Sequence record: NC_019423.1
DNA: 64,000 nucleotides
Source of the DNA: Escherichia phage IME11
Direction: 5' to 3' (one strand)
Shown: in pieces, positions 6,817 to 59,539 of the stretch
Position numbering within the stretch: position 1 is the first letter of the stretch
Layout of the letters: every line of letters starts with the position of its first letter
Translations under genes and position numbers: made by a program
Notes under the pieces: model-generated
What the model saw: only the letters and a program-made list of their open reading frames with translations
The model's database searches: none
Told to the model about the DNA's origin: nothing

Positions 6817-6879
6817 TTAACTGGCTTACTGTAGAGTAAGCTTCCTATATACGATATAAGTTTGAACAGGAAACATGCT

Positions 6880-12800: not shown

Positions 12801-15800
12801 TGCTCTGGAATACGACCAGCGTGAGGGTGCTACTGATGACCTGTTACGTATTGGTGCTGAACAGATTGAACGTAATCTGCGTAACATTGCTCTGGGTGTA
12901 GATATTCGCCACAAGGTAATGAACCAGGTACAGACTACTGTTGACCAGATGGCTGCTGTAGGTGCTCCTTATGTGAACAACGGTAAAATTTCTCTGGAAG
13001 GTCTGACTGTAGACCAACAAGTAGCTAAGCTGAACGAACTGTTTGATGTTGAATTAAACAAGCGTCGTGATGCAGTACGTGCTGCTAAAGCAGAACCAGT
13101 GAAAGAAGTACCAGCAATGGAACAGGTTGGTCGTGTACTGAAGTCTGGTGTACGTCTACTGTCTAATACTGCTATTACTAAGTTGGCTAAAGAGATGACT
13201 CCAGAACAGGCTGCTGTACTGAAAGAAGTACAGAACTCCCTTGCTGCTAAAGACTACAAGGTTGTTTATGGCACTCCTTCTCAACTGGATGCCTACGCTA
13301 TTGAGAAGAACATTACTCGCCCAGCACCGGAAGATATTGAAGCTGCTGAAGCTGGTAATGCATACGGCTGGACTAACTTTGATGATAAGACCATCTACTT
13401 AGTTACTCCTTCCTTAGAGACTCTGGTTCATGAATTGGTACATGCTTCTACTTTTGAATCTGTACTGGCTCACTATGAAGGTACTCCTAATGAAGCAGTT
13501 CAGAATATTGAAGACCTGATGAACCAGTTCCGAACTCTGGATGTTAAGGATGAATCCCCGGCAGTACGTGAAGCATATGCTGATGCACTCAATACCATTA
13601 ATGGTCACTTGTCTAATGGCTTTATTGAACCAGCAATGGCTAAAGCTGCTGCACTGAATGAGTACATGGCATGGGGCTTAACCAACCGTGAACTGATTGG
13701 TAAGCAGAAGAAAACCACTGCACTTAAGGCCATGGTTCAGTCTGTGTATGAAGCAATCAAACGTCTGGTATTCGGACGTAAGAAAGCCCCTGCTAACGCA
13801 GATGATATGTTCTCTGGCTTACTGTTTAACTCTTCTGTAGTTATGCGTGGGCAGGCTCCTACTGCTGCTGTAGCCAAGGACACTACTCTGTTCCATAACA
13901 AAGCATATGGTGACAATACTCGTCTGGAAGAGCTAGGGAAGACCTTCGATAAACTGATTACTAACTACATTGGTTCAGAACCAGTACAACAAGTAATTCG
14001 TAAAGGTAAGTTCTCTGATGCAGTAGTGAATGCAACTAAAGTAACCCGTGATGTTCAGGCTCATGGCTTCACTATGAATATGCAGGAACAGCGTCTCTTT
14101 ACTAACATTGTTGCTGCACTGGCTACCGAAGCTGCTATTAGTCCAGCTGCTCTGGCTCGTGCACAAGAATACTATGCACACGTAACCAAGAACCTGACTG
14201 TTGAAGCGTTCATGACTGACCCGGATAGTACTAACCCTGCTGACCGTTACTACGCACAGCAGAAGTTCGATACCATCATGGGTGCTAACAACATTGAGTT
14301 TGATGCACAAGGTCGTTCTTCCTTACTGCCTACCTTTGTGGCACTGGCAATGGTAAGTGAAGATGTACGTAATGTGCTGGCTGACATTCCTGTTATGAAA
14401 GCAGATAAGCAATCCGGTAATACCGTTGATGCAATGCTGACTAATATCGGTACTGCTGCAATGGCTAGTCTGAATGCTCGTGTAGCAGGTGATACTAAAG
14501 CTACCAATGTACAAGAAGGTATGGATGCACTGGCTCAGACCATCATGCAGACCAGTCTTAATGCACAGTCATTCTATGATTCCGTCGCCACTCCTAGTGG
14601 TAATGCTATAGACCGTGCTAACCAGTATCTGGTGGACTCTATTGATGTACTGTCTACCCGTGCTTTAGAAGGTGCTCGTGAAGTTGCAGCTAATACCAAG
14701 AACCCGTTGGTTAAAGGTGCTGCTCATGCTGCACAACTGGTAGCTGCTATTGCTACAGAGAAGAATGGTGCAATCGTAGCTGAAGGTGTTATGGCTGCAA
14801 TGAACCAGGGTAAAGCATGGCAACCTTTCCACGACCTGGTTAATGACTTAACCGGACGTACTAAGAGCAATGCTTCTGTATATGATTTGATTAAAGCAGT
14901 TCGTGCACAGGTACAGGCTGACCGTCAACAGTTCCGTGAACACTTACCTACCACTATCGCATCCAAGTTCAGCCGTAAGCTGACTAATGATGAGTGGAAA
15001 GCAATGCATACCGGTATGGGTAAAACTGACTTGGCTGTCCTGCGTGACACTATGTCTTTGGCTGAAATTCGTGACCTGCTGACTGACCAGAAGATTGTTG
15101 ACCGTGAGGTGAATAAGCTGGAAGCAGATTTACAGAAACAAGCAGGACGTAACTGGCCTTTGATTAGCCGTAAATCTAAGCAACTGGCTCAGTACATGAT
15201 TAACGGTACAGTCGGTAGTAACCTGCTGCGTAATGCTACTGCAATTTCTCGTATGCTGGGTGAACGACAGGCTGCACGTTCTACCGTAGATGTGGCTCAA
15301 CTGGATAAGCTGATTACCTTGTATGCACTGGAAGCAATGAATAAGACTGACCGTGAGATGTTATCTTCACTGGCTCAGACAGAAATTGAAGGTATGGACT
15401 TTGCTACTTCTTATCTGGTTGGGCAGCGTAAAGATGAAATGGCTAAAGCCAAGTCTGATATGCGTGCAACCTTGAACCAGTACAAAGGACATATCCCCAG
15501 TGAAACTAAACAGGGTGTTAACCTGATTGTTGCTGAAGATAGTCAGTTTGCTGATTTGATTGAGAAGTCCTATGTACGTCTGGGTACTTATCAAGGTAGT
15601 TCTGCTAACCGTGGTCCAGCACGTAGCTACTACTTTGCACCAGTACAGGCACAGGCTCCATTCTCACAGGGTATATTACAGAACGTTCGCAATACTGCTG
15701 GTGGTGTGGACCTTGGTACAGGCTTTACGATGGGTTCCATGGTAGCAGGTCGTATCACTGACAAGCCTTCCGTAGACCGTATCACTAAAGCTCTGGCTCG

Positions 15801-17232
15801 TGGTGAACGTGGTAATGAACCACTGCTGCCTGTATATGATGACAAAGGGAATGTGGTTGCTTATGAGCAATCCATTGACCCTAACATGCTGAAGCACATT
15901 GAGGGTGAGAACCATCTTGCTCGTGCAATCGGTGTATGGCGTGGTCGTCAGGTAGAAGAGGCTAAGGCTCAGCGTTTCAACGATATGCTTATTGAGAACC
16001 TACATAGCATGTATGAGAACGACATTAAGATGTCTGCCTCTAATAAGTCCCAGTACGTTAACCTTCTTGGTTCTAAACTGGACCCAGTAACTGCCGATGC
16101 TCTTAAGCTGATGAATAGTGAAACTCGTCAGAAAGCAGAAAGCCTGTTTGGCCCGGGTGAGTTGTGGGTACGTCGTGATATGCTCAACGATGCTCTTGGT
16201 TATCGTGCAGCTTCTGTAGGGGATGCCTGGTCTGGTAATTCTCGTTGGTCCCCAGAAACACTGGATACCTTCAAGAAAGCTATGCTAGGTGTATTTGGCA
16301 ATCGTGCATATAAGTACACAATGGGTGGTGAGAACCTGGTTCAGAACTTAGTTAAAGAAGCTAAGACCCTGATTGTAGTTAAGTCAGTAGTCGTACCTGC
16401 AGTTAACTTCCTAGCTAACCTTTACCAGATGGTTGCTCGTGGTGTACCGGTTAAGAACATTGCTAAGAGCATTCCACAGAAGACTGCTGAGATTAACCAG
16501 TACCTGAAATCTCGTCTACGTCAGGTAGATGCAGAAGCAGAATTACGTGCAGCTACTAACCCGAACCAGATTCGTAAACTTAAGGCTGAGATTCAGTCCA
16601 TCTCTGATAGCCATAAGCGTTTAAGTATCTGGCCTCTGTTAGAAGCTGGTGAGTTCTCTTCAATTGCAGATGCTGGTATCGGACGTGATGACATCCTTAT
16701 TACTGAGGGTAAACTTCACGAATACATGGATAAGCTGGCTGATAAGCTACCTAAGTCTGTACGTAACGCAGGTCGTTATGCACTTATCACTAAGGATACT
16801 GCTCTCTTCCAGGGTATCCAGAAGACGGTTGAGTACTCTGACTTTATCGCTAAAGCAATCATCTATGATGAACTGACTCAGCGTAAAGGTAAGACTCGTG
16901 AGGAAGCACTGGGACGTGTAACGGAAGAGTTCATTAACTATGATCGTTTACCTGGTCGCTTCCGTGGGTATATGGAAAGCATTGGCTTAATGTGGTTCTA
17001 CAACTTTAAGATTCGTTCTGCAAAAGTTGCAGTGTCCATGATTCGTAATAACCCAGTACATGCTGCTATGGCTATGTTGGCTCCAACCCCTACCATGTTT
17101 GGTAATGTTGGTTTACCTATTCAGGACAACATCTTCAGCATTGCTGCACAGGGCAATCTCGGTTACTCCTTCGGTTTCGGTCAGGGCTTACGTGCCCATA
17201 ACCTGAACCCTTGGCTCAATCTTACTAACTAA
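6880..17232 (+). CDS. virion-encapsidated giant RNA polymerase (N4 vRNAP-like)
   Basis: ~3450-aa single ORF (track start 6862 is TTG; ATG at 6880 follows AGGAA). T7-like motif A YVEADGVTNGPIN (Asp codon 11446-11448), motif B RGIAKNPLTITIYGSG (~11770-11815), motif C KIFDGMNIG (Asp codon 12622-12624). The two Asp are 392 aa apart, the spacing I recall for N4 vRNAP. Confidence 0.9.
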   Translation: MSTFDRLAGFADSITNAKQVDVSTATSQKQAAQGQSPFQLTPENAYNLQTGRVGNLGTGAFDPGSLQADFTQASPLEIINKYGNEQGLQILNSRANAADVVRQDLSKQRTNSEAFGDTLSGVGLGVANTLGGIAALGTGLVNDNAGASIASGMDWLNEGVHNLQSDALNATRKVVQNQNQISAQENQKLYEEDIKNGESSLVASLSRIGRDAFDSVANTLDNGMAASDGLSEGVGSLFTGGPLIRGVSALGKVMVGGDKAVKGITLAAELGSRPAQVALSAGRVAAPAVAIGGMEAGGAYQQTASEIMKMSHQELASKSPVYRQHIADGLSPDEARRQTASETGITAAGLTAPVAAATGPLVSRFELNPLKVGSLAGAGSNMLRETVEEGIQSGFGQFAQNTAIKENVDASRDTLKGVGEQAGLGALYGFGSAGVAQAPGATVKAAGAAVGPTVRTTLAGASLVGNALAKVASPITNILVQRGEEVAKRNEQASPVSDATVNAAAQEATAQAEQAQATVQEAVDAMDISPEEKAAATQYAADLTQAMKFDPVELEQANPAIREAVSGSTNRVEAIQKMADLVNTAEDPNIQMEAAIQMYDNIMSMDSFINRDPGALANLEQGSPAANIVDQFSGLMANVQNTPKVLRAFRAIHSMIQEQAEAGKLKATEEANQAQANNIAMAADMSPEVLDADSVNMVLKHASEGKITLGNRQRAALQSAAAVLQGAREFDAKAEELGLRPQDIVSKQIKTDESRSNEGQYSALQHAKRIRSAYNSGNFDLASAYLDDFMKFAQHMQNKVGALNEHLISGNADKNKSVHYQALSPSREWVRSRTGLGVNPYDTKSVKFAQQVGLEAKTVADIANALATAYPELNVSHVKVTPLDSRLDKPAAQVVKEFRQGNLDAAQSQQTNEPVNQVDESPAPVQEATTTVQPKTKPVVENKSAPVKDTSSKPEEVTTTESETVDTALTNEDTTQEVAETKTEMETVFPVYNNDKTPSQFLKAFALPEEPKTRTIGSESPLTDVKQALSSAARFEAFTQKENNALTGDVMKRYQDLLGFGETLKSTLSDRLAKFLANKNVGKRFAEGTEANRWVGGKLLNIVEKDGDTFKFNDQLLETAVLAGLQWRLTATQNAAIKDMKDVAAITGVEVSLLPDGILADFENAQTLVEATNSLAQKIESYWGLNRNPNAPLGYTKGIPMAMATEILSSLIEMGEVKESMLDVSEIDPASNKTVGLYTIEKLDDNDAINNFPTAIEEAVLVEPEEKMYFGDDIPSVAQTQLRNPAVKNTPEQQAALKAEQATEFRVHMPMVNFYEALGRDNILELMGAGTLNPELLNVNTAKSLEGKNLSVSMAYDSLFGVINQVQEQENGLDTPIHYGYNMTRVGRMQMLGKNNPQSSKLVREAILPTFSTIDLSNENSQTFSDFQLGLAQALGIKVHNMSREAMSEKLTKALEGNLKPAVDMMVEFDKSGHLPTDAVDILKTSLGGDKSFVALMALMEYARYLNSNDRANFNTPLYVEADGVTNGPINAMVLMTGGKFTPDWIKNTAKGGLFFGKAGKTMNEHRSQDDSVDLYEASTNGLQQALGELRSTYRNNVPVMSQMSHLQKLMDLFIKDFNLNEDGTLDLKRGIAKNPLTITIYGSGARGIAGKMVSAITDTIYERFSDVLQARAADPSISPAMAMFGKEAASEADAQAMLDTFLTSMEALTGNVPVMRKGELSIQQAEGALTGKLDPQKFTVSGNALKNLQENMLHLFVEPMRTGIRNTVGEGLMHSTENLQKATQIQSLVLQDMFQQAVQAKLAEKEKDPTWKKGDFLTQKELNEIQESLSPLAPMIETGSQTFYIAGSENTDVANQVLATNLDDRMRVPMSIYAPSQAGVAGIPFMTIGTGDGMMMQTLSTMKGAPKNTLKIFDGMNIGINDITDASRKANEAVYTSWQGNPIKNVYDSFAKFMKNVDFSKLSDETKQAIAKSALEYDQREGATDDLLRIGAEQIERNLRNIALGVDIRHKVMNQVQTTVDQMAAVGAPYVNNGKISLEGLTVDQQVAKLNELFDVELNKRRDAVRAAKAEPVKEVPAMEQVGRVLKSGVRLLSNTAITKLAKEMTPEQAAVLKEVQNSLAAKDYKVVYGTPSQLDAYAIEKNITRPAPEDIEAAEAGNAYGWTNFDDKTIYLVTPSLETLVHELVHASTFESVLAHYEGTPNEAVQNIEDLMNQFRTLDVKDESPAVREAYADALNTINGHLSNGFIEPAMAKAAALNEYMAWGLTNRELIGKQKKTTALKAMVQSVYEAIKRLVFGRKKAPANADDMFSGLLFNSSVVMRGQAPTAAVAKDTTLFHNKAYGDNTRLEELGKTFDKLITNYIGSEPVQQVIRKGKFSDAVVNATKVTRDVQAHGFTMNMQEQRLFTNIVAALATEAAISPAALARAQEYYAHVTKNLTVEAFMTDPDSTNPADRYYAQQKFDTIMGANNIEFDAQGRSSLLPTFVALAMVSEDVRNVLADIPVMKADKQSGNTVDAMLTNIGTAAMASLNARVAGDTKATNVQEGMDALAQTIMQTSLNAQSFYDSVATPSGNAIDRANQYLVDSIDVLSTRALEGAREVAANTKNPLVKGAAHAAQLVAAIATEKNGAIVAEGVMAAMNQGKAWQPFHDLVNDLTGRTKSNASVYDLIKAVRAQVQADRQQFREHLPTTIASKFSRKLTNDEWKAMHTGMGKTDLAVLRDTMSLAEIRDLLTDQKIVDREVNKLEADLQKQAGRNWPLISRKSKQLAQYMINGTVGSNLLRNATAISRMLGERQAARSTVDVAQLDKLITLYALEAMNKTDREMLSSLAQTEIEGMDFATSYLVGQRKDEMAKAKSDMRATLNQYKGHIPSETKQGVNLIVAEDSQFADLIEKSYVRLGTYQGSSANRGPARSYYFAPVQAQAPFSQGILQNVRNTAGGVDLGTGFTMGSMVAGRITDKPSVDRITKALARGERGNEPLLPVYDDKGNVVAYEQSIDPNMLKHIEGENHLARAIGVWRGRQVEEAKAQRFNDMLIENLHSMYENDIKMSASNKSQYVNLLGSKLDPVTADALKLMNSETRQKAESLFGPGELWVRRDMLNDALGYRAASVGDAWSGNSRWSPETLDTFKKAMLGVFGNRAYKYTMGGENLVQNLVKEAKTLIVVKSVVVPAVNFLANLYQMVARGVPVKNIAKSIPQKTAEINQYLKSRLRQVDAEAELRAATNPNQIRKLKAEIQSISDSHKRLSIWPLLEAGEFSSIADAGIGRDDILITEGKLHEYMDKLADKLPKSVRNAGRYALITKDTALFQGIQKTVEYSDFIAKAIIYDELTQRKGKTREEALGRVTEEFINYDRLPGRFRGYMESIGLMWFYNFKIRSAKVAVSMIRNNPVHAAMAMLAPTPTMFGNVGLPIQDNIFSIAAQGNLGYSFGFGQGLRAHNLNPWLNLTN

Positions 17233-41217: not shown

Positions 41218-41724
41218 TTATTTACTGCTTCTTGCAGCTACTGGTTTGTTTTCCTGGTTCTGATACTTGCCATTGTAATTAGCAGGTTCCTGAACCAGAT
41301 GAAATAATACTTGAGCTATCCCAGAACCAGCCGGGATATGCAGTTTTTTACGACCATGATAGACCAATTCGAGGGTAAGATACCCTTTCCATCCTGGTTC
41401 GATTACTGTATTAAATACGGATAATGCACGTCTTGCCCATGTAGACTTGTCGTGAACGATAGCCACACAGGATGGTGACATGTTGAACTTCTCAATTGCT
41501 GAAGCCAATGCGAATTTACCGAGATGGCGTGATACTTGATCTCCATCAACGACCTTCACCATTGGAATCAACCCAAATAAGCAATAGAAGGTAATATCTT
41601 GTTTGATGCGAATATCATAACCAGCTTCACCTAATCCATAGCTTACACCATGTTCGGATACCTTACGGTCTGGTACATCCAGCAACTGAGATGAACGATA
41701 TAGAGAATTACCATTAACAACCAT
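41218..41724 (-). CDS. dcd: dCTP deaminase (dUTPase superfamily)
   Basis: 168 aa; VSYGLGEAGYDIRI, VIEPGWKGYLTLEL and IPAGSGIAQVLFH fit Dcd-family motifs. Confidence 0.65.
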   Translation of the reverse strand: MVVNGNSLYRSSQLLDVPDRKVSEHGVSYGLGEAGYDIRIKQDITFYCLFGLIPMVKVVDGDQVSRHLGKFALASAIEKFNMSPSCVAIVHDKSTWARRALSVFNTVIEPGWKGYLTLELVYHGRKKLHIPAGSGIAQVLFHLVQEPANYNGKYQNQENKPVAARSSK

Positions 41725-42899
41725 TATTTCATTCCTTTAGGGATATGAACTACCTCCCCAAAAGGTACGGTAGCATTGGGATTATTCAGAACACACCAGA
41801 TGATAGGGATATCAAATGGTAATTCTTCCATTGGACGAACATACATATCAGAGAATATGATTGCAGCGGTTGGCTTATTCTTAATAATCCAATCTCGTAC
41901 TGGTTCAAGGTTTGTACCACCACGGCCTGTAATCTTAATCTCTTCGAAAGTATCTTCTTCAGTGATGTCTATTTCTTCCTGAATAATATCGTCGAAGGTA
42001 ATTAAGGACATCTTCTTAGGATTAAACTGGCTCTTAACATAGGCAACCTCTGAGTTAAAACGCAGAGAGTCAGCACTACTAATAGAACCAGATACATCCT
42101 CAAAGTAGGCTAAGTGTCGTAAGCGTCCTTCATCATCTTCCAGGGAAGGTAGATAAATGTCAAAGAAACGACGGTTAGGTCTGGCCCACGTATAATGTGT
42201 GTCATCAATGTCGGTAAAGAAGTTCATCAGAACTTCCTGCCAGGGAACCACTGGTTTAAGGAATTGGGTAATAACCTCTTCCATGCGACCAGCACCTTTA
42301 CCGGGCATTGTTCCACCAGCCATCTTCTGGCTCTGCATTGCACGTACTACGTTGTTGACAACAGCACCCTGGGACTGCCCCGAAGAGGGAGCTTTCATGT
42401 CGCCAGCAAGACCTGCTCCAGCACCCCCAGACGGCTTCTGCCTTTTCTGAGGGTTCTTCATCAGGTCATCGTAGATGTCTTCTTCGACCCATCCTTTATA
42501 TTGAGGGTCTTTGCAAATACCTTTATCAATGCCAGTGAACTTATAACCATCTTCCTCTAACTGAAGGTTAATGAAGTGATCACATGCCTGGTTCCAGACT
42601 TCCGGGTCACGGCTTCCACAACGGATGCCATGTAGATATGCTACATGCCAGAGTTCGTGCATTAACACTGTTTCCCTTGCATCTGGGCACATCCAGATAA
42701 AGAAATCTGGGTTGAAATGGAGTTCTATCCCATCAGTACATGCAGTGGGACAATCCTCACGTTTCCATGAGAACTTAAGACTACACAGCAATGAACCAAA
42801 AAACGCTGCACTGCGTCCTAGGAAAGCGTTGGCCTGAATACGGTCATACTCACGCAAGAGTTGTTCATCACTAAGTGTGTGCTGAGGTATCTGGTTCAT
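41724..42899 (-). CDS. VWA-domain protein with N-terminal HExxH metallopeptidase-like domain (DUF2201-type)
   Basis: ATG at 42899 lies 8 nt after the AAA gene stop (track ORF extends to 42983). HExxH in VLMHELWHVAYLHG; MIDAS-like DxSGS in YFEDVSGSIS. Confidence 0.6.
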   Translation of the reverse strand: MNQIPQHTLSDEQLLREYDRIQANAFLGRSAAFFGSLLCSLKFSWKREDCPTACTDGIELHFNPDFFIWMCPDARETVLMHELWHVAYLHGIRCGSRDPEVWNQACDHFINLQLEEDGYKFTGIDKGICKDPQYKGWVEEDIYDDLMKNPQKRQKPSGGAGAGLAGDMKAPSSGQSQGAVVNNVVRAMQSQKMAGGTMPGKGAGRMEEVITQFLKPVVPWQEVLMNFFTDIDDTHYTWARPNRRFFDIYLPSLEDDEGRLRHLAYFEDVSGSISSADSLRFNSEVAYVKSQFNPKKMSLITFDDIIQEEIDITEEDTFEEIKITGRGGTNLEPVRDWIIKNKPTAAIIFSDMYVRPMEELPFDIPIIWCVLNNPNATVPFGEVVHIPKGMK

Positions 42900-42906
42900 A
42901 GTGTGA

Positions 42907-43959
42907 TTACCCGTGAATGTAACGAGAGATATTAGCAGCAGCCTTACGCCATTCAGGAGTAGCCTGAAGATCTGGTAATGCATTGCCTACTGTACGGAAG
43001 TACAGAATCTTATGGGTGAATGTTTTAAAGCGTTCAATATACTGAAGAACATCAGCAAAGTTTTCTTCAGTAGTTTTGTTAGCCAGATGGTTAACGGTAG
43101 CCCAGCACAGGTTGTTATCTTCCGGTAGTGCACAGCCCATAGGGTCTTTAACTACCTTCTCAATCGTAATCATACGATTGTACACCTGAGTAAACTGAAC
43201 AAATTCTGTAGCTTTACCAGCAGTAACGTGACCTGCATAGTAGATAGAATCTTCATCAGGCAGAGCACCTTCTGGCAGGTTCTTGAGGTCTTTGTTAACA
43301 AAGTCCCAAGTACGAGGACAACAGAACGTTTTGTTTTTATGAGCAGGGTCGAAGTCATGTAGATAACCAGGGTTAGCATGTAAGAATGCAACCAGACGTT
43401 CATCCCATTGCTGAGGAACCATTACGTCTTCAACAAAGATGTCGAAGTTAAGTTCCATTTCAAAGTGAACCACACGAGACTGCATTGCAGTACCTAGTGG
43501 GTTAACAATGGCACGGTCGGTAGCTTTGTTACCAGCACATACAATCATCACATTAGGATGAAGTTTTTTCTGACCTGTCATACGGTCCAGAATCAGTTTG
43601 TATGCAGCAGCTACTACTTCTTTCTTAGCTGAGTTGAACTCATCAAGGAATAAGAGCCAGCCATTATACCCTTCTGGTAATTCATCCCCCTCAATAGGAA
43701 ATAAGTCAGCGAATGGGATAAATTCTGCACGGTCACCATTACGAAATGGTAAGCCAGAAAGGTCTTCCGGGGCAGAAGTAGACAGACGGTGGTCTATCAG
43801 CTTCATACCAAATTCTTCTGCAACAGAACGAATAATTGCAGATTTACCCATGCCCGGTGATGAAGTCAGGAACGGTACGTTACCTGCTCTAAGGGCACGG
43901 ATAATAAAGTTACGAGCTTGACGTGTATTACATACGGTCAAGGAGTCAATGCTTGCCAT
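42907..43959 (-). CDS. MoxR-like AAA+ ATPase
   Basis: 350 aa; Walker A SPGMGKSA, Walker B LLFLDEFN, sensor-like VCAGN; immediately upstream of the VWA partner. Confidence 0.7.
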   Translation of the reverse strand: MASIDSLTVCNTRQARNFIIRALRAGNVPFLTSSPGMGKSAIIRSVAEEFGMKLIDHRLSTSAPEDLSGLPFRNGDRAEFIPFADLFPIEGDELPEGYNGWLLFLDEFNSAKKEVVAAAYKLILDRMTGQKKLHPNVMIVCAGNKATDRAIVNPLGTAMQSRVVHFEMELNFDIFVEDVMVPQQWDERLVAFLHANPGYLHDFDPAHKNKTFCCPRTWDFVNKDLKNLPEGALPDEDSIYYAGHVTAGKATEFVQFTQVYNRMITIEKVVKDPMGCALPEDNNLCWATVNHLANKTTEENFADVLQYIERFKTFTHKILYFRTVGNALPDLQATPEWRKAAANISRYIHG

Positions 43960-49545: not shown

Positions 49546-49564
49546 CAAAAGCTGCGGAGCAGCT
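49546..49564 (-). promoter_or_regulatory. N4-type vRNAP hairpin promoter (template on plus strand, transcription leftward)
   Basis: CCAAAA-AGCTGC-GGA-GCAGCT: 6-bp stem, GGA loop; CC at 49545-49546 sits 11 nt 5' of the loop-centre G (template +1/+2, giving a GG-initiated RNA). Confidence 0.6.
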
Positions 49565-52512: not shown

Positions 52513-52698
52513 TTACTCCTTATGGAGTTTACGGATTTGTTTACGGGTAGGTTTAGTTACAAAGAAGTGGTCATAGCAACGACCATTTTCATCTTTTACA
52601 GATACCTGCCAACGAGCATTCAATGTCATCTTACTGCCCCAAGGCTGTAATGTAACAATCAACTTCTGTGAGTTATAACGGTTACATACTGTACGCAT
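52513..52698 (-). CDS. small basic protein, paralog of 53352-53558
   Basis: 61 aa ending KPTRKQIRKLHKE; shares N-terminal MR and C-terminal KPT(K/R)KQIRKL with its paralog. Confidence 0.45.
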   Translation of the reverse strand: MRTVCNRYNSQKLIVTLQPWGSKMTLNARWQVSVKDENGRCYDHFFVTKPTRKQIRKLHKE

Positions 52699-53328: not shown

Positions 53329-53347
53329 CATAAGACGCGGAGCGTCT
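53329..53347 (-). promoter_or_regulatory. N4-type vRNAP hairpin promoter
   Basis: CATCCATA-AGACGC-GGA-GCGTCT; CC at 53328-53329 is 11 nt 5' of the loop-centre G. Confidence 0.6.
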
Positions 53348-53351
53348 AGTT

Positions 53352-53558
53352 TTAGATTGCTTCTTTACGAAACTCTCTACGCAATTTACGGATTTGTTTC
53401 TTGGTAGGCTTAGCAGGGAATGAATGACAAGCAACATAGTGCTGTCTCTCTGTTACGTTAGTAATCTCTGAGAACCAAAGATTCCACTGAGCATCCATCT
53501 TACCTAACAATCCACCATTGTTACTCTTGTTTGCAAACAGGGAAGTTTGAATACGCAT
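53352..53558 (-). CDS. small basic protein, paralog of 52513-52698
   Basis: 68 aa with C-terminal KPTKKQIRKLRREFRK; flanked by two hairpin promoters. Confidence 0.45.
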   Translation of the reverse strand: MRIQTSLFANKSNNGGLLGKMDAQWNLWFSEITNVTERQHYVACHSFPAKPTKKQIRKLRREFRKEAI

Positions 53559-53587: not shown

Positions 53588-53606
53588 CAATAGATGTGGA
53601 GCATCT
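53588..53606 (-). promoter_or_regulatory. N4-type vRNAP hairpin promoter
   Basis: AGCCAAT-AGATGT-GGA-GCATCT (one T-G in stem); CC at 53587-53588 is 11 nt 5' of the loop-centre G. Confidence 0.55.
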
Positions 53607-54086: not shown

Positions 54087-54410
54087 TTAGTCTTTAGTCA
54101 GGATGTCAATTACTTTAGAATATTCTGCGTTATAGATACGAGCGTTCTCTGAATCTTTGCAGAAATCTTCGATACTTTTCTTACGCAGAGTCTCGTTCCT
54201 AGCTGTTTCCTCTGCCAGTTTATTAACAAAGGTATGCATTTCTAATTTAGTACGAATGGCTTGTTTCTCTGCCATAGTACTTACATATGAATTAAGCATA
54301 CCTACTGCTTTAGTTGCTGTACCAAATGTATCTGCAACAGTAGTAGCAGCTGAGTTAACAGTACCAAGTAAAGTTCCTGCGGTCATACGTACAGTAGCGG
54401 TAGTAGTCAT
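54087..54410 (-). CDS. hypothetical early protein
   Basis: 107-aa ORF, first gene downstream of hairpin promoter 54449-54467. Confidence 0.45.
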   Translation of the reverse strand: MTTTATVRMTAGTLLGTVNSAATTVADTFGTATKAVGMLNSYVSTMAEKQAIRTKLEMHTFVNKLAEETARNETLRKKSIEDFCKDSENARIYNAEYSKVIDILTKD

Positions 54411-54448
54411 GATGATAGCTCCAATAGTTGATGATAGGACGACATGTC

Positions 54449-54467
54449 CATAACATGCGGAGCATGT
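54449..54467 (-). promoter_or_regulatory. N4-type vRNAP hairpin promoter (the one furthest to the right in this window)
   Basis: GTCCATA-ACATGC-GGA-GCATGT; CC at 54448-54449 is 11 nt 5' of the loop-centre G. Confidence 0.6.
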
Positions 54468-54643
54468 GTAACGTGTAAGGTGGGGTAGGGTAGTGGCTAC
54501 ACCGTCAACATACCGGGGGGGCTAGTTGAGTGTAAGGGTGTAGCCCCAGCCACACCACTGTAGCCATACATAGCTATCATCATTTTGGTATGCAAAAATA
54601 CCATAGCTATCCTACTTATAAGCAGTTAAATAGGAGGAAGCTT

Positions 54644-54964
54644 TCAGGTGATTATGCGTGCTATACCAGGGTAATAGTCCGGATGGTTAGGATTACCACT
54701 ACTATTCCTTACGGTAGCATCTTTGATAAATACATGGGCATAATCACCGTATGGTATGAATACTGACTCACCATTTTGCAGGATAACTATCTCTGCATTA
54801 CTGTTAGTAAGTAGCTTATGTCCCTGTGCAAAGTCTGCTAACTCTCCTGGCTCCATTATTAGTGTAGAAGTTCCATGGGTCATAATGTGGATGATTGCTT
54901 TTTCTGGTACAGAGGAATAATGCAGTAAGTCCGTACCTTTCATTCCTAATAGTTTAACGTTCAT
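54644..54964 (-). CDS. small protein of tandem paralog family (member F)
   Basis: 106 aa; core EPGELADFAQGHKLLTNSNAEIVILQNGESVFIP shared with 55265-55615 and others. Confidence 0.5.
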   Translation of the reverse strand: MNVKLLGMKGTDLLHYSSVPEKAIIHIMTHGTSTLIMEPGELADFAQGHKLLTNSNAEIVILQNGESVFIPYGDYAHVFIKDATVRNSSGNPNHPDYYPGIARIIT

Positions 54965-55268
54965 GCTTCAGTACCTGTTTAAGAAGACTATCCATGTAAT
55001 AGCAGTATGCCTCGGAGTTATCATCGTTGATTGGTAATCCAATGAACCCGAAGGTGTATATACAGAAGTGATTAAGTTCATGAACCAAGGTGATAGGGTC
55101 ACTATCTTGTGCATAGATAAGTACCGAACCATCAGATAGCAGTGTAGTTACACCTTTGCTTTGTTCCTCTGGTTCACAGCCCTTAGCTTTCTTGTACTTC
55201 TTAATGAAGGTATCCCAGTCGAATACTACCTCTAACTGTACCGGATAGGGGGATGTGTTTAGTTTCAT
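54954..55268 (-). CDS. small HExxH-motif protein (putative mini metallopeptidase-like)
   Basis: 104 aa; LVHELNHFCIY contains HExxH; embedded in the paralog array. Confidence 0.45.
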   Translation of the reverse strand: MKLNTSPYPVQLEVVFDWDTFIKKYKKAKGCEPEEQSKGVTTLLSDGSVLIYAQDSDPITLVHELNHFCIYTFGFIGLPINDDNSEAYCYYMDSLLKQVLKHER

Positions 55269-55615
55269 AGAGATACCTTTGGATAAATGGTGCGTACTCT
55301 TTTAAAATCTTTATTAGGTCTACCATCTATAGTAAGCCCAACAAACCCTTCTTCTATCCTTGGTTCAAAGAACAAGAATGCAGATTCACCAGCAGGTATC
55401 TTTATGGATTCCCCTGGATTAAGGATGGTTAAATTAGCAGGGCTGTTGAGTAGAAGGATGGAACCACGAGTACTATCTGCTAACTCACCGGGTAACATAA
55501 GCATATGACAGTCTTGCGGGAGTAACCAATCAATAGCTTTAGTGACATTCTCAGAGTAAACGGATACCTCATCTGTATACTGGTGAAGGAATAATACTCT
55601 ATTCATAAGGTACAC
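55265..55615 (-). CDS. small protein of tandem paralog family (member E)
   Basis: 116 aa; core LPGELADSTRGSILLLNSPANLTILNPGESIKIP. Confidence 0.5.
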   Translation of the reverse strand: MYLMNRVLFLHQYTDEVSVYSENVTKAIDWLLPQDCHMLMLPGELADSTRGSILLLNSPANLTILNPGESIKIPAGESAFLFFEPRIEEGFVGLTIDGRPNKDFKRVRTIYPKVSL

Positions 55616-55923
55616 TCGTCGCTAGATAAATATGAGGTAGAAGGATAGAGGGTAATAAGTCTACCTGTTAGGGTAGTTACTACCATAGGTTCACAGGAGG
55701 AGTAGATGTATACAACTACATTCTCTGGAACTTCAATGGAAGTATCTATTTTAATAAAGGTAATAGGTACACCCAACATGAGGCAGGTTCCGATGAACTC
55801 ATCCGCTTTTTCACATTGTTCGTAGTACATGGTCATAGGTGTGCTTATCCTCAACCAATGGGATTTACCTACCCCCAGATTAAGGGGACTGGTACTACGA
55901 TAACTCAAACCATAGAAGTGCAT
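55603..55923 (-). CDS. small protein, possible divergent member of the paralog family (D)
   Basis: 106 aa; weaker similarity (ADEFIGTCLMLGVPITFIKIDTSIEVP). Confidence 0.4.
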   Translation of the reverse strand: MHFYGLSYRSTSPLNLGVGKSHWLRISTPMTMYYEQCEKADEFIGTCLMLGVPITFIKIDTSIEVPENVVVYIYSSCEPMVVTTLTGRLITLYPSTSYLSSDECTL

Positions 55924-55926
55924 AAC

Positions 55927-56304
55927 TTACTTCCTTACATAGTAGTAACGATAGTCATCATTATCATGACGACTATCCCACTGGTAGTCATGAGATATCA
56001 TCATGAAAGGTAGAGCATCATATGCACAACTAACGGTGTATACTGAGGGAGGAATGATACATACAACCTTACGGTCACAACCAGCTAAGAATAGCTGACC
56101 CCTTACTTCATGATAATCTTCTAAAGTAGGAACCAGTATTACTCGTTGGGGACTGCTGTTCATCACTTCTTCTAAAGTGAAGTCAGTTGTAAACAATAGT
56201 TCCCCTTTAATAAAACTGGGGGCGGTCATTATGAATTTCATGATTGATTCTCCTTCCTTTAGGAATAGGTCTGAAGTAAATGGAAAGTGTTTTATTAAAG
56301 ACAT
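55927..56304 (-). CDS. small protein of tandem paralog family (member C)
   Basis: 125 aa; core VPTLEDYHEVRGQLFLAGCDRKVVCIIPPSVYTV; overlaps member B by 98 nt. Confidence 0.45.
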   Translation of the reverse strand: MSLIKHFPFTSDLFLKEGESIMKFIMTAPSFIKGELLFTTDFTLEEVMNSSPQRVILVPTLEDYHEVRGQLFLAGCDRKVVCIIPPSVYTVSCAYDALPFMMISHDYQWDSRHDNDDYRYYYVRK

Positions 56305-56605
56305 TATGGTCAGCTATCAATTCCCAACCAGGTATCTTATAGAAACGTACACCGGGGAAGATCATACTAAAGTCATTGTAAAACGAAAGATCATACACCT
56401 TTGGTTCAGTAAGTATCTTAGTATTGAGTTGCAGATTGGATAGGAAAAGAGAACCAATAACTTCATGGGACTCTTCGCAGTCAGGTAAGAATACCGTTTG
56501 CCACGGGGTAATGAACTTACTTACTACTTCTGGTTCCCCTAGTAGATAGGGTTCCTGCTTATGAAGTACTCCAGTAATATCAATATCAAAAGCGTAGATG
56601 CTCAT
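56207..56605 (-). CDS. small protein of tandem paralog family (member B)
   Basis: 132 aa; core LPDCEESHEVIGSLFLSNLQLNTKILTEPKVYDL. Confidence 0.45.
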   Translation of the reverse strand: MSIYAFDIDITGVLHKQEPYLLGEPEVVSKFITPWQTVFLPDCEESHEVIGSLFLSNLQLNTKILTEPKVYDLSFYNDFSMIFPGVRFYKIPGWELIADHNVFNKTLSIYFRPIPKGRRINHEIHNDRPQFY

Positions 56606-56620
56606 AGTTGCATACCTCCT

Positions 56621-56657
56621 GAAAAAGAAATGGGGTAGAGCCTCTCGACTCTACCCC
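56621..56657 (-). terminator. putative rho-independent terminator
   Basis: 9-bp stem GGGGTAGAG/CTCTACCCC with 8-nt loop, preceded on plus by GAAAAAGAAA (T-run on minus). Confidence 0.45.
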
Positions 56658-56805
56658 TTACCGTTTTCTATCACGGGTCAGTTCATCACCCTAGATACAT
56701 GTGTATCGTTAGCCTACTAGGTAGGAAAGGAGCCGGGTAACCCTGACTGTAGAAGTTATTAACTCTTTACGAGTACCGCCACTGTCTACTAGGCGGTATG
56801 ACTAA

Positions 56806-57096
56806 TCACATCGTCACCGTCATCCGAACGCTGTCTTTGCTTCGTTTGATGGAGACACTATGAGGTAATTTTGTGAAGAACACAAGAGCTGAAAAGCGTT
56901 TTTCTAAAGAGTAAGTTTCTCTTGGTTCTAGGATTTTAATGCCAGGACGATTCTCTAACAGCATCATCCCAGCTAATTCATGATAGGTGTCTTCATCATG
57001 CGTAATGATAATATCACCTGAAAGGAAGCCAGTCTTAGTGTGGTCTAGCTCCTTGTATTCATCTTTAGAGTCCTGGACTCTCATATAGATTCTCAA
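56806..57096 (-). CDS. small protein of tandem paralog family (member A)
   Basis: 96 aa; core YHELAGMMLLENRPGIKILEPRETYSL; first minus-strand gene next to the divergent junction with terminase. Confidence 0.5.
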   Translation of the reverse strand: MRIYMRVQDSKDEYKELDHTKTGFLSGDIIITHDEDTYHELAGMMLLENRPGIKILEPRETYSLEKRFSALVFFTKLPHSVSIKRSKDSVRMTVTM

Positions 57097-57267: not shown

Positions 57268-57957
57268 ATGAGTGAGTTAACCAGACAGCAAATTATTAAT
57301 GCACTACCTGCTAACTTCAAAAATAGTGTAAGCCAGGAATTGGTAGACACGATTAACAACATTACCCAAGACCAGCTGGTTGCTGAGGCATTCCGTGAAA
57401 ACTTCATCTCTTACTCTGGTGTAATGAAGGAGGGTAAGTTCAAGACACAGGACTACATGAATGCAGTTCAGTATGTGACTTACAAACATATGGGCTATTC
57501 CAATAAGGAAGCCTACTTCAAAACATTCCCTAACCGACAAGCAGAACTTGTAGCACGGGGAACCAGTGAGAAAGATATTAGTGCTTATGTATCTGCTTAC
57601 CACAGGGGTAAGCTAGTTAACCTCATCATGGAACAAAGTTTGGTTCCAGTGTGGATTGTGAACCAAGACAATTATCAGAAGGCAATCAATGTTCAGGTTG
57701 AACTGATGACTACAGCAGCAAGTGAGAAGGTAAGATGTGATGCAGCTAACTCTATCCTTACCCACTTAGCTAAACCAAAAGACCAGGTAACTAACATCAA
57801 TCTGGACTTGAGAGAGAACTCCGGGTTGACCGACCTCAAAGCAACACTTGCTGCATTAGCTGAACAGCAAATCAATGCAATCAATAGTGGTGTACCTACT
57901 AAAGAGATTGCTGGTTCTAAACTAGTACGTGCAGATGAGGACATTACAGATGTCTGA
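57268..57957 (+). CDS. putative terminase small subunit (by position)
   Basis: 229-aa ORF immediately upstream of and overlapping the terminase large subunit; assignment is by synteny. Confidence 0.4.
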   Translation: MSELTRQQIINALPANFKNSVSQELVDTINNITQDQLVAEAFRENFISYSGVMKEGKFKTQDYMNAVQYVTYKHMGYSNKEAYFKTFPNRQAELVARGTSEKDISAYVSAYHRGKLVNLIMEQSLVPVWIVNQDNYQKAINVQVELMTTAASEKVRCDAANSILTHLAKPKDQVTNINLDLRENSGLTDLKATLAALAEQQINAINSGVPTKEIAGSKLVRADEDITDV

Positions 57958-59539
57958 GTTAATTAAACAGGAACTGGATGAATGGCTAGACCAGGTGGAT
58001 TATTCCCACCTTAACTCTTCTAACTATGTTCCCAGTCAGTTTGCTCTTACCTTTGCCAACTTTATTAAGTTGGTTAATGGTAAGGAAGGTGAATCCAACA
58101 AAACACCACCAGTTCACTTGAAGATGTTGGATAAGATGATTAGCCCGAACCAGTATGTAGTTAACCTGTGCTTCCGTGGTGCAGGTAAGACTGCTGTGTT
58201 CATGGAATACTTTACATTGTTCTTGGCAGTGTTTGGACACTTACCAAGTCTGGGAAAAGTAGAAGGAATGATTTACGTATCCGACTCAATGGATAACGGT
58301 GCTAAGTCTGCACGTAAGAATATTGAGTTCCGGTATAAGAATAGTGAGTTCCTTCAGCAGTGGATACCTGAAGCTACCTTTACGGATAACCTGTTAGAGT
58401 TCCGTAATGCAGAAGGGCATCGACTGGGTGTTAAGTTGTTTGGTGCTAAGACAGGTCTTCGTGGTACGAAGATATATGGTAAACGTCCAACACTCTGTGT
58501 ACTGGATGACTTGATTAGTGATGGTGATGCTAACTCTAAGACTAGCATGGAAGCTATTAAAGATACCGTCTATAAAGGTGTGAACCATGCTCTTGACCCA
58601 ACCCGTCGTAAAGTAATCTTCAACGGTACTCCCTTTAATAAGGAAGACATTATCATTGAGGCTGTTGAGTCTGGTGCATGGGATGTAAACGTATGGCCTG
58701 TATGTGAGAAGTTCCCTTGCAGTGAAGAAGAATTTCAGGGTGCATGGGATGACCGTTTCTCTTACGACTACATCAAAGCCCAATACGATATGGCAGTTAA
58801 GACCGGTAAGCTGGCAGGCTTCTATCAGGAACTTATGCTCCGTATCAGTTCTGAGGATGAGAGACTGGTTCAGGATAGTGAAATTAAATGGTACAGCAGG
58901 CAGCAGCTATTAAGGATGAAATCCTGCTACAACTATTACATTACAACTGACTTTGCTACTTCGGAGAAACAGACCAGTGACTACAGTGTCATATCAGTTT
59001 GGGCTTATAGTTCTAATGGAGATTGGTTCTGGGTTGATGGTGTGGCTAATCGCCAGCTTATGGATAAAAACTTTGATGACCTGTTCCGTCTGGTTCAGGA
59101 ATACCAACCACAAAACGTTGGTGTCGAAATTACAGGACAACAGAATGGATTCATCTCACTCCTTCAGAAAGAAATGATTAACCGTAACGTCTTCTTTAAC
59201 TTTGCTACCTCTGAGGGTGGTAAGCCAGGCATCCGTCCTGTAACCTCTAAGCTGTCACGCTTTAACCTGGTAGTTCCATGGTTCAAGGCTGGTAAGATGT
59301 ATTTCCCGGAAGAGTTGAGAGATACAACTATTATGGGGCTGTTCATGGGCCAGATTAAACTAGCTACCATTAATGGAATCAAAGGTAAGGATGACTGTAT
59401 TGATACTATTTCCATGCTGGGTTATCTCAATCCTTGGAAACCACAAGCAGGTATGACTATGGTGGATAGTAAGGGTGACCCAATGTGGGATGAGGAAGAA
59501 GAAGATAGTGTTAACCCACTACGTTCATATATTGTATGA
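57950..59539 (+). CDS. terminase large subunit
   Basis: ATG at 57950 with GAGGA RBS (track start 57929 is GTG); Walker A CFRGAGKT, Walker B LCVLDD, C-terminal nuclease-like acidic motifs (ITTDFATS, DDCIDT). Confidence 0.8.
   Translation: MSELIKQELDEWLDQVDYSHLNSSNYVPSQFALTFANFIKLVNGKEGESNKTPPVHLKMLDKMISPNQYVVNLCFRGAGKTAVFMEYFTLFLAVFGHLPSLGKVEGMIYVSDSMDNGAKSARKNIEFRYKNSEFLQQWIPEATFTDNLLEFRNAEGHRLGVKLFGAKTGLRGTKIYGKRPTLCVLDDLISDGDANSKTSMEAIKDTVYKGVNHALDPTRRKVIFNGTPFNKEDIIIEAVESGAWDVNVWPVCEKFPCSEEEFQGAWDDRFSYDYIKAQYDMAVKTGKLAGFYQELMLRISSEDERLVQDSEIKWYSRQQLLRMKSCYNYYITTDFATSEKQTSDYSVISVWAYSSNGDWFWVDGVANRQLMDKNFDDLFRLVQEYQPQNVGVEITGQQNGFISLLQKEMINRNVFFNFATSEGGKPGIRPVTSKLSRFNLVVPWFKAGKMYFPEELRDTTIMGLFMGQIKLATINGIKGKDDCIDTISMLGYLNPWKPQAGMTMVDSKGDPMWDEEEEDSVNPLRSYIV

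What the first reader, a model, noticed from the sequence alone, without database searches (positions are those of the whole stretch)
54954..55268. 104-aa HExxH-motif protein embedded in the paralog array
A very small ORF carries a zinc-metallopeptidase-type HExxH (LVHELNHFC) and sits between paralog members E and F. Minimal HExxH proteins in phage early regions can act as proteases or protease-like regulators targeting host factors.
Basis: seen in the sequence. Interest (0 to 1): 0.45.

Follow-up and report, generated by a model that had tools for sequence, protein, structure and literature searches.

The report
Stand-alone mini zinc-peptidase-like phage protein
The 104-residue ORF is a real, conserved gene of an N4-like coliphage that carries the full metal-binding signature of a zinc peptidase and belongs to a large, unnamed phage family that includes P22/HK620 hkcC; its target is unknown.

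Summary
The ORF exists exactly as described: 54954-55268, minus strand, 104 aa, HELNH at residues 63-67. It sits between two paralogous genes in the right-end gene cluster of a Gamaleyavirus (N4-like phage).

One HExxH in a window this size is expected by chance (about 0.5 per window proteome). Conservation settles it. In 150 relatives that share less than 50% identity with each other, H63, E64, H67 and E86 never vary, and Y90 is kept in 148. The usual spacing is HExxH-x18-E, the gluzincin pattern.

The AlphaFold model (pLDDT 90) has the order strand-helix-strand-strand-helix(HExxH)-helix(Glu), which is the published minimal zincin core. Profile comparison links the family specifically to the HExxH (C1/MPTase) domain of this phage's own virion RNA polymerase (90% probability, against 2.7% for a control).

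No Pfam, NCBIfam or PADLOC family matches, and PHROG 1365 has no assigned function. Searches against solved structures were inconclusive.

The gene is dispensable, since it is cleanly deleted in phage Mimir124. It lies outside the hairpin-promoter early region. It is not a metzincin, SprT or ImmA member.

Best reading: an accessory, free-standing zinc metallopeptidase whose substrate is unknown.

The parts
54954..55268 (-). ORF of 104 aa: stand-alone minimal zincin-like (gluzincin-type) protein, member of PHROG 1365
   Evidence: ORF. phrog_1365 E 2e-27. 103 close homologs. 745 clusters at 50% identity with E<=1e-3. AF2 pLDDT 90.3, strand-helix-strand-strand-helix-helix.
55068..55082 (-). HELNH (H63-E64-x-x-H67): predicted two zinc ligands and the general-base glutamate, on helix 58-76
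   Evidence: Invariant in 150/150 divergent representatives. Helix assignment.
54999..55013 (-). E86-A-Y-C-Y90: predicted third zinc ligand (E86) and a conserved tyrosine one helical turn later, on helix 85-103
   Evidence: E86 150/150, Y90 148/150. Spacing HExxH-x18-E in 127 of 161 family members.
54974..55240 (-). Segment missing from phage Mimir124 (replaced by 7 bp). It removes the core of the ORF and leaves both overlapping gene ends.
   Evidence: blastn of the window against L001. Mimir124 annotation shows the two phrog_12606 genes adjacent.
54644..54964 (-). Downstream flanking paralog (phrog_12606; weak, sub-threshold cupin match), overlaps the 3' end of the ORF by 11 nt
55265..55615 (-). 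Upstream flanking paralog (phrog_12606); its stop overlaps the ORF's ATG
13225..13539 (+). Core of the HExxH (C1 / MPTase) domain of the virion RNA polymerase (HELVH at 13429-13443): closest detectable relative of the 104-aa protein within the same genome
   Evidence: hhalign family profile against vRNAP C1 profile: 90% probability, E 1.6e-6, 99 columns. Against the single sequence: 76.6%. Control against the other HExxH protein: 2.7%. Domain described in PMC5512222 and PMC13434306.

Best explanation
The ORF encodes a free-standing, minimal zincin-type (gluzincin-like) metallohydrolase, most likely a zinc-dependent peptidase.

Proposed mechanism:
- H63 and H67 on the first long helix and E86 on the following helix hold one Zn2+.
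- E64 activates the zinc-bound water.
- Y90, one turn after E86, helps stabilise the transition state.
- The two strands before the HExxH helix (G39-T41 and V49-Y52) form the edge of the substrate cleft.

It is a stand-alone relative of the MPTase (C1) domain that N4-like phages carry inside their virion RNA polymerase. It is an accessory, dispensable gene expressed from the right-end cluster of the genome. It most probably cleaves a specific host protein (or a competing element's protein) rather than doing an essential morphogenetic job.

Shown: the gene, its conservation, the invariant residues, the predicted secondary-structure order, the profile link to vRNAP C1, and dispensability.
Inferred: metal binding, peptidase activity, role of Y90, nature of the substrate.
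For: - Invariant H63/E64/H67/E86 and near-invariant Y90 and G39 in 150 representatives that share less than 50% identity with each other.
- Spacing HExxH-x18-E in 127/161 members. From general knowledge this equals the M1 gluzincin spacing and is close to thermolysin's x19.
- The confident AF2 model (pLDDT 90.3, pTM 0.83) has strand 12-15, helix 18-29, strands 39-43 and 49-53, helix 58-76 (HExxH) and helix 85-103 (E86). [quoted passage not shown]
- Profile-profile match to vRNAP C1: 90%, E 1.6e-6, 99 columns. The control against the other HExxH protein in the window gave 2.7%.
- All weak profile hits in the PDB sequence search that align at the motif are zincins: astacins E 0.06-0.08, Spartan, Lys-metalloendopeptidase, myroilysin, N4 vRNAP.
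- BFVD matches include proteins named BepA-like protease (E 2e-3) and PolyVal metallopeptidase (E 7e-3).
- Purifying selection: 21 synonymous against 9 nonsynonymous codon changes.
- Dispensability and mosaic contexts: deleted in Mimir124. Located at known moron sites in P22-like phages (hkcC in the ant moron).
Against: - No curated family matches.
- The hhalign alignment places E86 against a vRNAP glutamate that is not conserved in N4 itself. The register in the last helix is therefore uncertain.
- Nothing here identifies a substrate or the time of expression.
Confidence: 0.62

Rival explanations
1. A late-expressed protease that acts on phage proteins, or is itself packaged. It would process or activate virion or ejection proteins (for example the vRNAP or other ejected proteins) in trans. 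Alternatively it would be packed into the capsid and delivered with the DNA, like the MPTase domains of polyvalent proteins.
For: The gene recurs next to packaging, lysis or ejection genes in podoviruses:
- divergent from terS in Gamaleyavirus and KP8;
- between terS and terL in Possum;
- between the lysis genes and terS in ST104;
- directly after ejection gene 16 in HK620;
- last gene after terminase and lysozyme in temperate T7-like contigs.

Its closest relative is a domain of a packaged, ejected protein (PMC5512222).
Against: - The gene is absent from N4 itself (not among the tblastn hits) and cleanly deleted in Mimir124, so it is not needed for assembly.
- The positions in P22-like phages are classical moron sites (PMC2629481).
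- In other phages it lies among early-type arrays of small ORFs (GP100).
- No virion proteomics evidence was found.
Confidence: 0.15
2. A zincin-fold hydrolase whose substrate is not a protein, for example an immune signalling nucleotide or another small molecule. Alternatively, a non-hydrolytic HExxH enzyme.
For: - One metagenomic homolog lies two genes from an Acb2/Tad1-hairpin (signal sponge) gene.
- The very small size leaves little room for a protein-binding cleft.
Against: - The HExxH + Glu signature with a preceding edge strand is the peptidase arrangement.
- The specific profile match is to an MPTase domain.
- The suggestive hits are all non-significant, and the Acb2 neighbourhood is a single observation.
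Confidence: 0.1
3. An ImmA/IrrE- or SprT-like regulatory protease that cleaves a repressor or a DNA-bound protein.
For: Small HExxH proteins of phages often belong to these families. One of 150 family members gives a weak SprT-like hit (E 0.007), and Spartan appears at E 0.62.
Against: - No Pfam hit for the query at E<=1.
- 149 of 150 members have no SprT-like hit and none hits M78.
- No adjacent HTH repressor gene in any context examined.
- The host phage is strictly lytic.
Confidence: 0.04
4. A chance HExxH in a small protein, or a non-coding ORF with no metal site.
For: About 0.5 chance HExxH motifs are expected per window proteome. Structure searches against solved zincins were negative.
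Against: - The four putative site residues are invariant in 150 divergent relatives.
- 745 homologous clusters exist.
- There is an excess of synonymous change.
- The structure model is confident.
Confidence: 0.01

Closest known systems
Zincin-like MPTase domain of polyvalent proteins, specifically the C1 domain of N4-like virion RNA polymerase (Iyer et al. 2017, PMC5512222; N4 vRNAP res. 2124-2375, PMC13434306)
   Same: - HExxH on one helix and a Glu-bearing helix after it.
- A G-x-T strand and a second strand just before the motif ('...TLVHELxH').
- The same order of secondary-structure elements.
- A specific profile-profile match (90%, 99 columns).
- Both are encoded in the same phage genome.
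   Different: - Free-standing 104-aa protein rather than a domain of a 3,456-aa packaged protein.
- It has an invariant E-x3-Y pair.
- The vRNAP glutamate aligned to E86 is not conserved in N4.
- The Pfam MPTase-PolyVal model matches neither protein.
- It is dispensable, whereas the vRNAP is essential.
Gluzincins with short HExxH-to-Glu spacing (M1 aminopeptidases HExxH-x18-E; thermolysin M4 HExxH-x19-E), and the ~100-residue archaeal 'minigluzincins' (M48/M56-like). Named from general knowledge.
   Same: - Two His plus a downstream Glu as the ligand set.
- x18 spacing.
- N/S-E-A context of the Glu.
- Size comparable to minigluzincins.
- A BFVD relative is labelled BepA (M48)-like.
   Different: - No significant sequence or structure match to any solved gluzincin.
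- The tyrosine four residues after the Glu is not a feature I know of in those families.
- Cytoplasmic phage protein with no pro-segment or membrane anchor.
P22 / HK620 hkcC and ST104 ORF47 (genes of unknown function in P22-like phages)
   Different: Only 25-29% identical to other family members in the tblastn hits used to find them. They are in temperate phages, in the ant moron after ejection gene 16, or between the lysis and terminase genes.
SprT-like (PF10263) and ImmA/IrrE M78 (PF06114) small phage metalloproteases
   Same: Small size, HExxH, phage-borne, zincin superfamily.
   Different: No model match, no partner repressor, no SprT C-terminal zinc-binding module.

Membership tests
Zincin superfamily, gluzincin type | HExxH motif located on an alpha-helix | tested here: met
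   HELNH at residues 63-67 lies inside predicted helix 58-76. It is invariant in 150/150 relatives.
Zincin superfamily, gluzincin type | Third zinc ligand is a Glu on the helix that follows the HExxH helix | tested here: met
   E86 is invariant in 150/150 and lies in helix 85-103. The spacing is x18 in 127/161 members. This holds at the level of sequence and secondary structure only.
Zincin superfamily, gluzincin type | Core fold: three-stranded sheet, N-terminal helix, two C-terminal helices (PMC5512222) | tested here: met
   AF2 elements are E12-15, H18-29, E39-43, E49-53, H58-76, H85-103, matching the description read.
Zincin superfamily, gluzincin type | Three-dimensional similarity to solved zincin catalytic domains | tested here: inconclusive
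Zincin superfamily, gluzincin type | Ligand side chains converge on one metal site; zinc binding; peptidase activity | not testable with these tools
   Model coordinates are not returned.
Metzincins | Extended motif HExxHxxGxxH/D and a Met-turn | tested here: not met
   The sequence is HELNHFCIYTF. The Gly position is Ile, and the third-ligand position is Phe (Phe/Leu/Met across the family).
SprT-like (PF10263) | Match to the family model | tested here: not met
   No hit for the query at E<=1. One of 150 family members hits at E 0.007.
ImmA/IrrE, peptidase M78 (PF06114) | Match to the family model and an adjacent HTH repressor substrate gene | tested here: not met
   No Pfam hit. No HTH gene is adjacent in the contexts.
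MPTase domain of polyvalent proteins (Iyer 2017; Pfam MPTase-PolyVal) | Sequence-profile relationship to an MPTase clade | tested here: met
   hhalign to the vRNAP C1 profile gives 90%, E 1.6e-6. The control gives 2.7%. No Pfam model, including MPTase-PolyVal, matches the query or the vRNAP C1 region.
MPTase domain of polyvalent proteins (Iyer 2017; Pfam MPTase-PolyVal) | Embedded in a large multidomain protein delivered with the DNA | tested here: not met
   Median family length is 116 aa, and 96% of members are 150 aa or shorter. The single 330-aa sequence, which I only inspected by eye, has a low-complexity tail.
PHROG 1365 (function unknown) | Match to the family profile | tested here: met
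   E 2.1e-27, residues 1-102 on profile positions 6-115 of 127.

The most novel reading that the evidence does not exclude
The family (PHROG 1365, including P22 hkcC) would be a widespread class of free-standing phage 'mini-MPTases'. They would be derived from, or ancestral to, the protease domain buried in virion RNA polymerases and polyvalent proteins. They would act as counter-defence or exclusion effectors by cleaving one specific host immune or competitor protein. That would give the first handle on what the enigmatic MPTase domains of ejected phage proteins actually cut.
Probability: 0.25. Interest if true: 0.7.

Novelty: new member of a known kind. Interest (0 to 1): 0.4.

Why it matters
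Zincin-like MPTase domains are the commonest domain of the 'polyvalent' proteins that phages and plasmids inject with their DNA. According to the 2017 survey read here (PMC5512222), their substrates have not been identified.

A soluble protein of about 100 residues from the same lineage would be a far more tractable object for finding the substrate and solving a structure than a 3,500-residue virion polymerase. It is present in about 745 sequence clusters and in model phages (P22, HK620, G7C-like coliphages).

It would also put a predicted activity on a gene of P22 that has been listed as 'unknown function' for decades.

If the protein is only a generic accessory protease, the result is a useful annotation and no more.

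Tried and rejected
- **Curated libraries.** Pfam on the query and on 150 relatives, NCBIfam and PADLOC gave no family. Only isolated sub-threshold hits appeared (SprT-like, astacin, pepF, aKG-HExxH).
- **PDB sequence search.** The close-homolog profile found nothing. The broad profile found only E>=0.057.
- **Source names.** The homolog searches returned only 'hypothetical protein'.
- **Literature.** Searches on HExxH/anti-defence, minigluzincins, N4-like transcriptomes, virion proteomics and hkcC found no functional study of this family.
- **Context sampling.** Sixteen phage or metagenome neighbourhoods were examined for a conserved partner gene, and none was found. The Acb2/Tad1 neighbour is a single case.
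- **Promoters.** The sigma-70 promoter scan of the cluster found fewer sites than shuffles (5 against 11.7), so it says nothing about timing.
- **Rejected readings.**
  - Metzincin: motif test fails.
  - ImmA-type regulator: no repressor partner.
  - Essential morphogenetic protease: natural deletion in Mimir124, and absent from the tblastn hits for N4.
  - Early gene: outside the hairpin-promoter region.

Full report
**What the window is**

The region around the finding is 85-95% identical to Gamaleyavirus genomes (G7C-like, N4-like coliphages; Schitoviridae, Enquatrovirinae). The window is a permuted copy of the genome, so the two ends of the linear molecule are joined.
- Three deposited genomes break at window position about 54143-54152.
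- Mimir124 annotates a 403-bp direct terminal repeat that corresponds to about 54152-54554.
- To the left of the repeat, on the minus strand, lies the early region.
- To the right lies a cluster of small minus-strand genes that ends at the divergently transcribed terminase genes (57268-59539).

**The observation**

- Its ATG overlaps the stop codon of the gene upstream (ATGA, read).
- Its last 11 nt overlap the start of the gene downstream.
- The two flanking genes are true paralogs. Both match phrog_12606, and they are 42% identical over 66 residues (E 3e-13).

**Is the motif more than chance?**

On its own it is not. With this window's amino-acid composition, 0.0023 HExxH are expected per 104 residues and about 0.5 per window proteome. 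The window has three such motifs in ORFs of at least 60 codons.

Conservation decides the matter.
- A search of 5.8 billion proteins returned 103 close homologs, nearly all 104-110 aa. Counting the query with them (104 sequences), H63, E64, N66 and H67 are kept in 103-104.
- An exhaustive profile search of 1.84 billion cluster representatives found 745 clusters with E<=1e-3.
- In the best 150 of these, which share less than 50% identity with each other and 18-63% with the query, H63, E64, H67 and E86 are invariant. Y90 is present in 148 and G39 in 144.
- The spacing between the motif and the glutamate is 18 residues in 127 of 161 members and 19 in 13 more.
- Against the ortholog in phage 24-32N, 21 codons differ synonymously and 9 nonsynonymously.

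The ORF is therefore a real gene under purifying selection. The residues that would make a zinc site are the most constrained positions in the family.

**Structure**

AlphaFold2 with 28 homologs gives a confident model (mean pLDDT 90.3, pTM 0.83). Its elements are strand 12-15, helix 18-29, strands 39-43 and 49-53, helix 58-76 (carrying HExxH) and helix 85-103 (carrying E86 and Y90).

This is the arrangement Iyer et al. give for the core of zincin-like metallopeptidase (MPTase) domains. [quoted passage not shown]

Global structure searches did not confirm this independently.
- Foldseek against the PDB gave nothing better than E 0.17.
- The AlphaFold-database libraries were not available.
- Against predicted viral structures the fold is common: 16 matches with E<=1e-3. 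Nearly all are uncharacterised phage proteins (Ralstonia, Achromobacter, Pseudomonas, Serratia, Eggerthella and Salmonella phages, and, at weaker scores, Erwinia and crAss-like phages).
- The few named viral matches are 'beta-barrel assembly-enhancing protease' (E 2e-3), 'PolyVal metallopeptidase superfamily domain' (E 7e-3) and 'SprT-like' (E 0.08).

I could not obtain model coordinates. Whether the three side chains converge on one point is therefore untested.

**Relationship to known families**

No curated family matches.
- Pfam finds nothing for the query at E<=1, and only four isolated sub-threshold hits among 150 relatives.
- NCBIfam and PADLOC find nothing.
- PHROG 1365, which the protein matches at E 2e-27, has no assigned function.
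- A family profile against all PDB sequences gives only non-significant hits. Most of the 14 align at the HExxH of a zincin or an HExxH domain: astacins BMP1/TLL1 (E 0.06-0.08), Spartan, peptidyl-Lys metalloendopeptidase, myroilysin and the N4 virion RNA polymerase.

That last hit led to the most specific result. The vRNAP of this phage (6862-17232) carries '...GWTNFDDKTIYLVTPSLETLVHELVH...' at residue 2190. This lies in the region that Iyer et al. identified as an MPTase domain (aa 2130-2448). The 2026 N4 structure paper calls it C1 (res. 2124-2375).
- The family profile aligned to that single sequence gives 76.6% probability.
- Aligned to a profile of twelve schitovirus C1 domains (loci, alignment), it gives 90% probability, E 1.6e-6, over 99 columns. 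That covers almost the whole small protein.
- The same family profile against the third HExxH protein of the window, a DUF2201_N/VWA protein at 41724-42983, gives 2.7%.

The similarity is therefore not just the shared motif.

One caveat remains. The vRNAP glutamate that hhalign pairs with E86 is not conserved in N4 itself, while a glutamate one to two turns later is. The register in the last helix is uncertain.

The metzincin signature is absent. The residues at the Gly and third-ligand positions are Ile and Phe.

**Distribution and context**

Within Enquatrovirinae the gene lies in the right-end cluster, in both Gamaleyavirus and the Klebsiella genus Kaypoctavirus.

It is not universal. About 36 Escherichia, Shigella or Gamaleyavirus records carry it, while 59 records match the surrounding 3.2 kb. 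In Mimir124, window positions 54974-55240 are replaced by 7 bp, which removes the ORF core and leaves the two paralogs adjacent. N4 does not appear among the tblastn hits.

The family HMM also recognises, at 79-122 bits:
- Possum gp098, between terS and terL;
- ST104 ORF47, between the lysis genes and terS;
- HK620 hkcC, directly after ejection gene 16;
- a Kuttervirus gene after gp46/gp47;
- a Zobellviridae gene in a left-end array of small ORFs.

Other contexts:
- P22 hkcC is listed in the literature as a gene of unknown function in the 'ant moron' (PMC2629481; PMC4837284).
- In temperate T7-like metagenomic phages it is the last, or next-to-last, gene after terminase and lysozyme, next to the integrase.
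- One short contig has an Acb2/Tad1-hairpin gene two genes upstream.
- No partner gene recurs.

The pattern is that of an accessory, horizontally shuffled gene. It shows a noticeable but not exclusive preference for the late or right-end part of podovirus genomes.

**Early or not?**

N4-type vRNAP promoters are short hairpins with a 3-nt loop. I know this from the N4 literature and did not test it here.
- Perfect hairpins with 6-bp stems and a GGA loop lie on the plus strand (the template for minus-strand genes) at 49550-49564, 53333-53347 and 54453-54467.
- A fourth with a G-T wobble lies at 53593-53605.
- None lies between 54600 and 57300.

The HExxH gene is therefore upstream of the first early promoter and beyond the terminal repeat. 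On the linear genome it is at the end opposite the early region. A strong terminator-like hairpin (56632-56657) follows the first gene of the cluster. The sigma-70 scan is uninformative. Time of expression remains unknown.

**Mechanism proposed**

- Shown: a conserved, dispensable, cytoplasmic-looking 104-aa protein with invariant H-E-x-x-H...E...Y, on two consecutive predicted helices behind a small sheet. It is specifically related to the vRNAP MPTase domain.
- Inferred: H63, H67 and E86 bind Zn2+. E64 is the general base. Y90 assists catalysis. The G39-T41 strand lines the substrate cleft. The enzyme is a peptidase with a narrow target.
- Because it is dispensable and sits in variable regions, I favour a host-directed or competitor-directed accessory role (confidence for an active zincin-type enzyme about 0.6; for this particular role about 0.25-0.3).
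- The main rival is a late-acting or packaged protease that works on phage proteins, suggested by its frequent neighbours. A non-protein substrate cannot be excluded.

**Verdict**

This is a new, uncurated family within a well-known superfamily. Its interest is moderate, and comes mainly from its link to the uncharacterised MPTase domains of ejected phage proteins and from including P22 hkcC.

Noticed in passing
window 54453-54467, 53593-53605, 53333-53347, 49550-49564 (+ strand): Four short hairpins with 5-6 bp stems and a GGA loop (ACATGC-GGA-GCATGT, GATGT-GGA-GCATC, AGACGC-GGA-GCGTCT, AGCTGC-GGA-GCAGCT). Each lies just upstream of minus-strand small genes. They look like N4-type virion-RNA-polymerase early promoters and mark the start of the early region at about 54470.
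   Followed up: partly
window 13429-13443 within the 3,456-aa ORF 6862-17232 (+): The virion RNA polymerase carries a conserved HELVH in its C1 domain ('ETLVHELVH'), strikingly like 'ITLVHELNH' of the 104-aa protein. Across the 12 schitovirus C1 sequences aligned, the HExxH is invariant, but the glutamate nearest to it is not.
   Followed up: yes
window 41724-42983 (-): The third HExxH protein of the window: 419 aa with DUF2201_N putative metallopeptidase (E 3e-54) plus a VWA-like DUF2201 domain (E 2e-33). It is unrelated to the 104-aa family by profile comparison (2.7%).
   Followed up: partly
window 56632-56657 (-): A strong intrinsic-terminator-like hairpin (11-bp stem, 7 GC pairs, then a T-rich tail of 7 T in 10 bases). 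It lies between the first gene of the right-end cluster (56806-57096) and the rest of the array. This implies the array needs read-through or its own promoter.
   Followed up: no
window 54644-57096 (-): The small genes of the right-end cluster (phrog_12606 twice, 12099, 11661, 9160, 7213) share a '...E(L/V)x(G/D)...LL.N....I(L)....E....(P)' core by eye. One has a weak cupin match (E 0.18). They look like a diverged paralog array of small beta-proteins. Content differs between related phages (24-32N, Bp4, Mimir124).
   Followed up: partly
window 52515-52556 and 53372-53413: A 42-nt direct repeat (79% identical). It encodes the shared C-terminal 'KPT(R/K)KQIRKL' tails of two small early ORFs (52513-52698 and 53352-53558), so these are another pair of early-gene paralogs.
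   Followed up: no
L006 128-421 and 671-1138 (metagenome contig ERZ28613684): A distant family member (P0224, 155 aa) lies two genes downstream of a gene with an Acb2/Tad1 hairpin domain (immune-signal sponge). This is a single hint of an anti-defence neighbourhood.
   Followed up: no
L008 2962-3327 (HK620 hkcC); L010 2995-3384 (ST104 ORF47): The long-known unknown-function gene hkcC of P22/HK620, and a second P22-like gene between the lysis and terminase genes, belong to the same HExxH...E...Y family (82 and 79 bits with the family HMM).
   Followed up: yes
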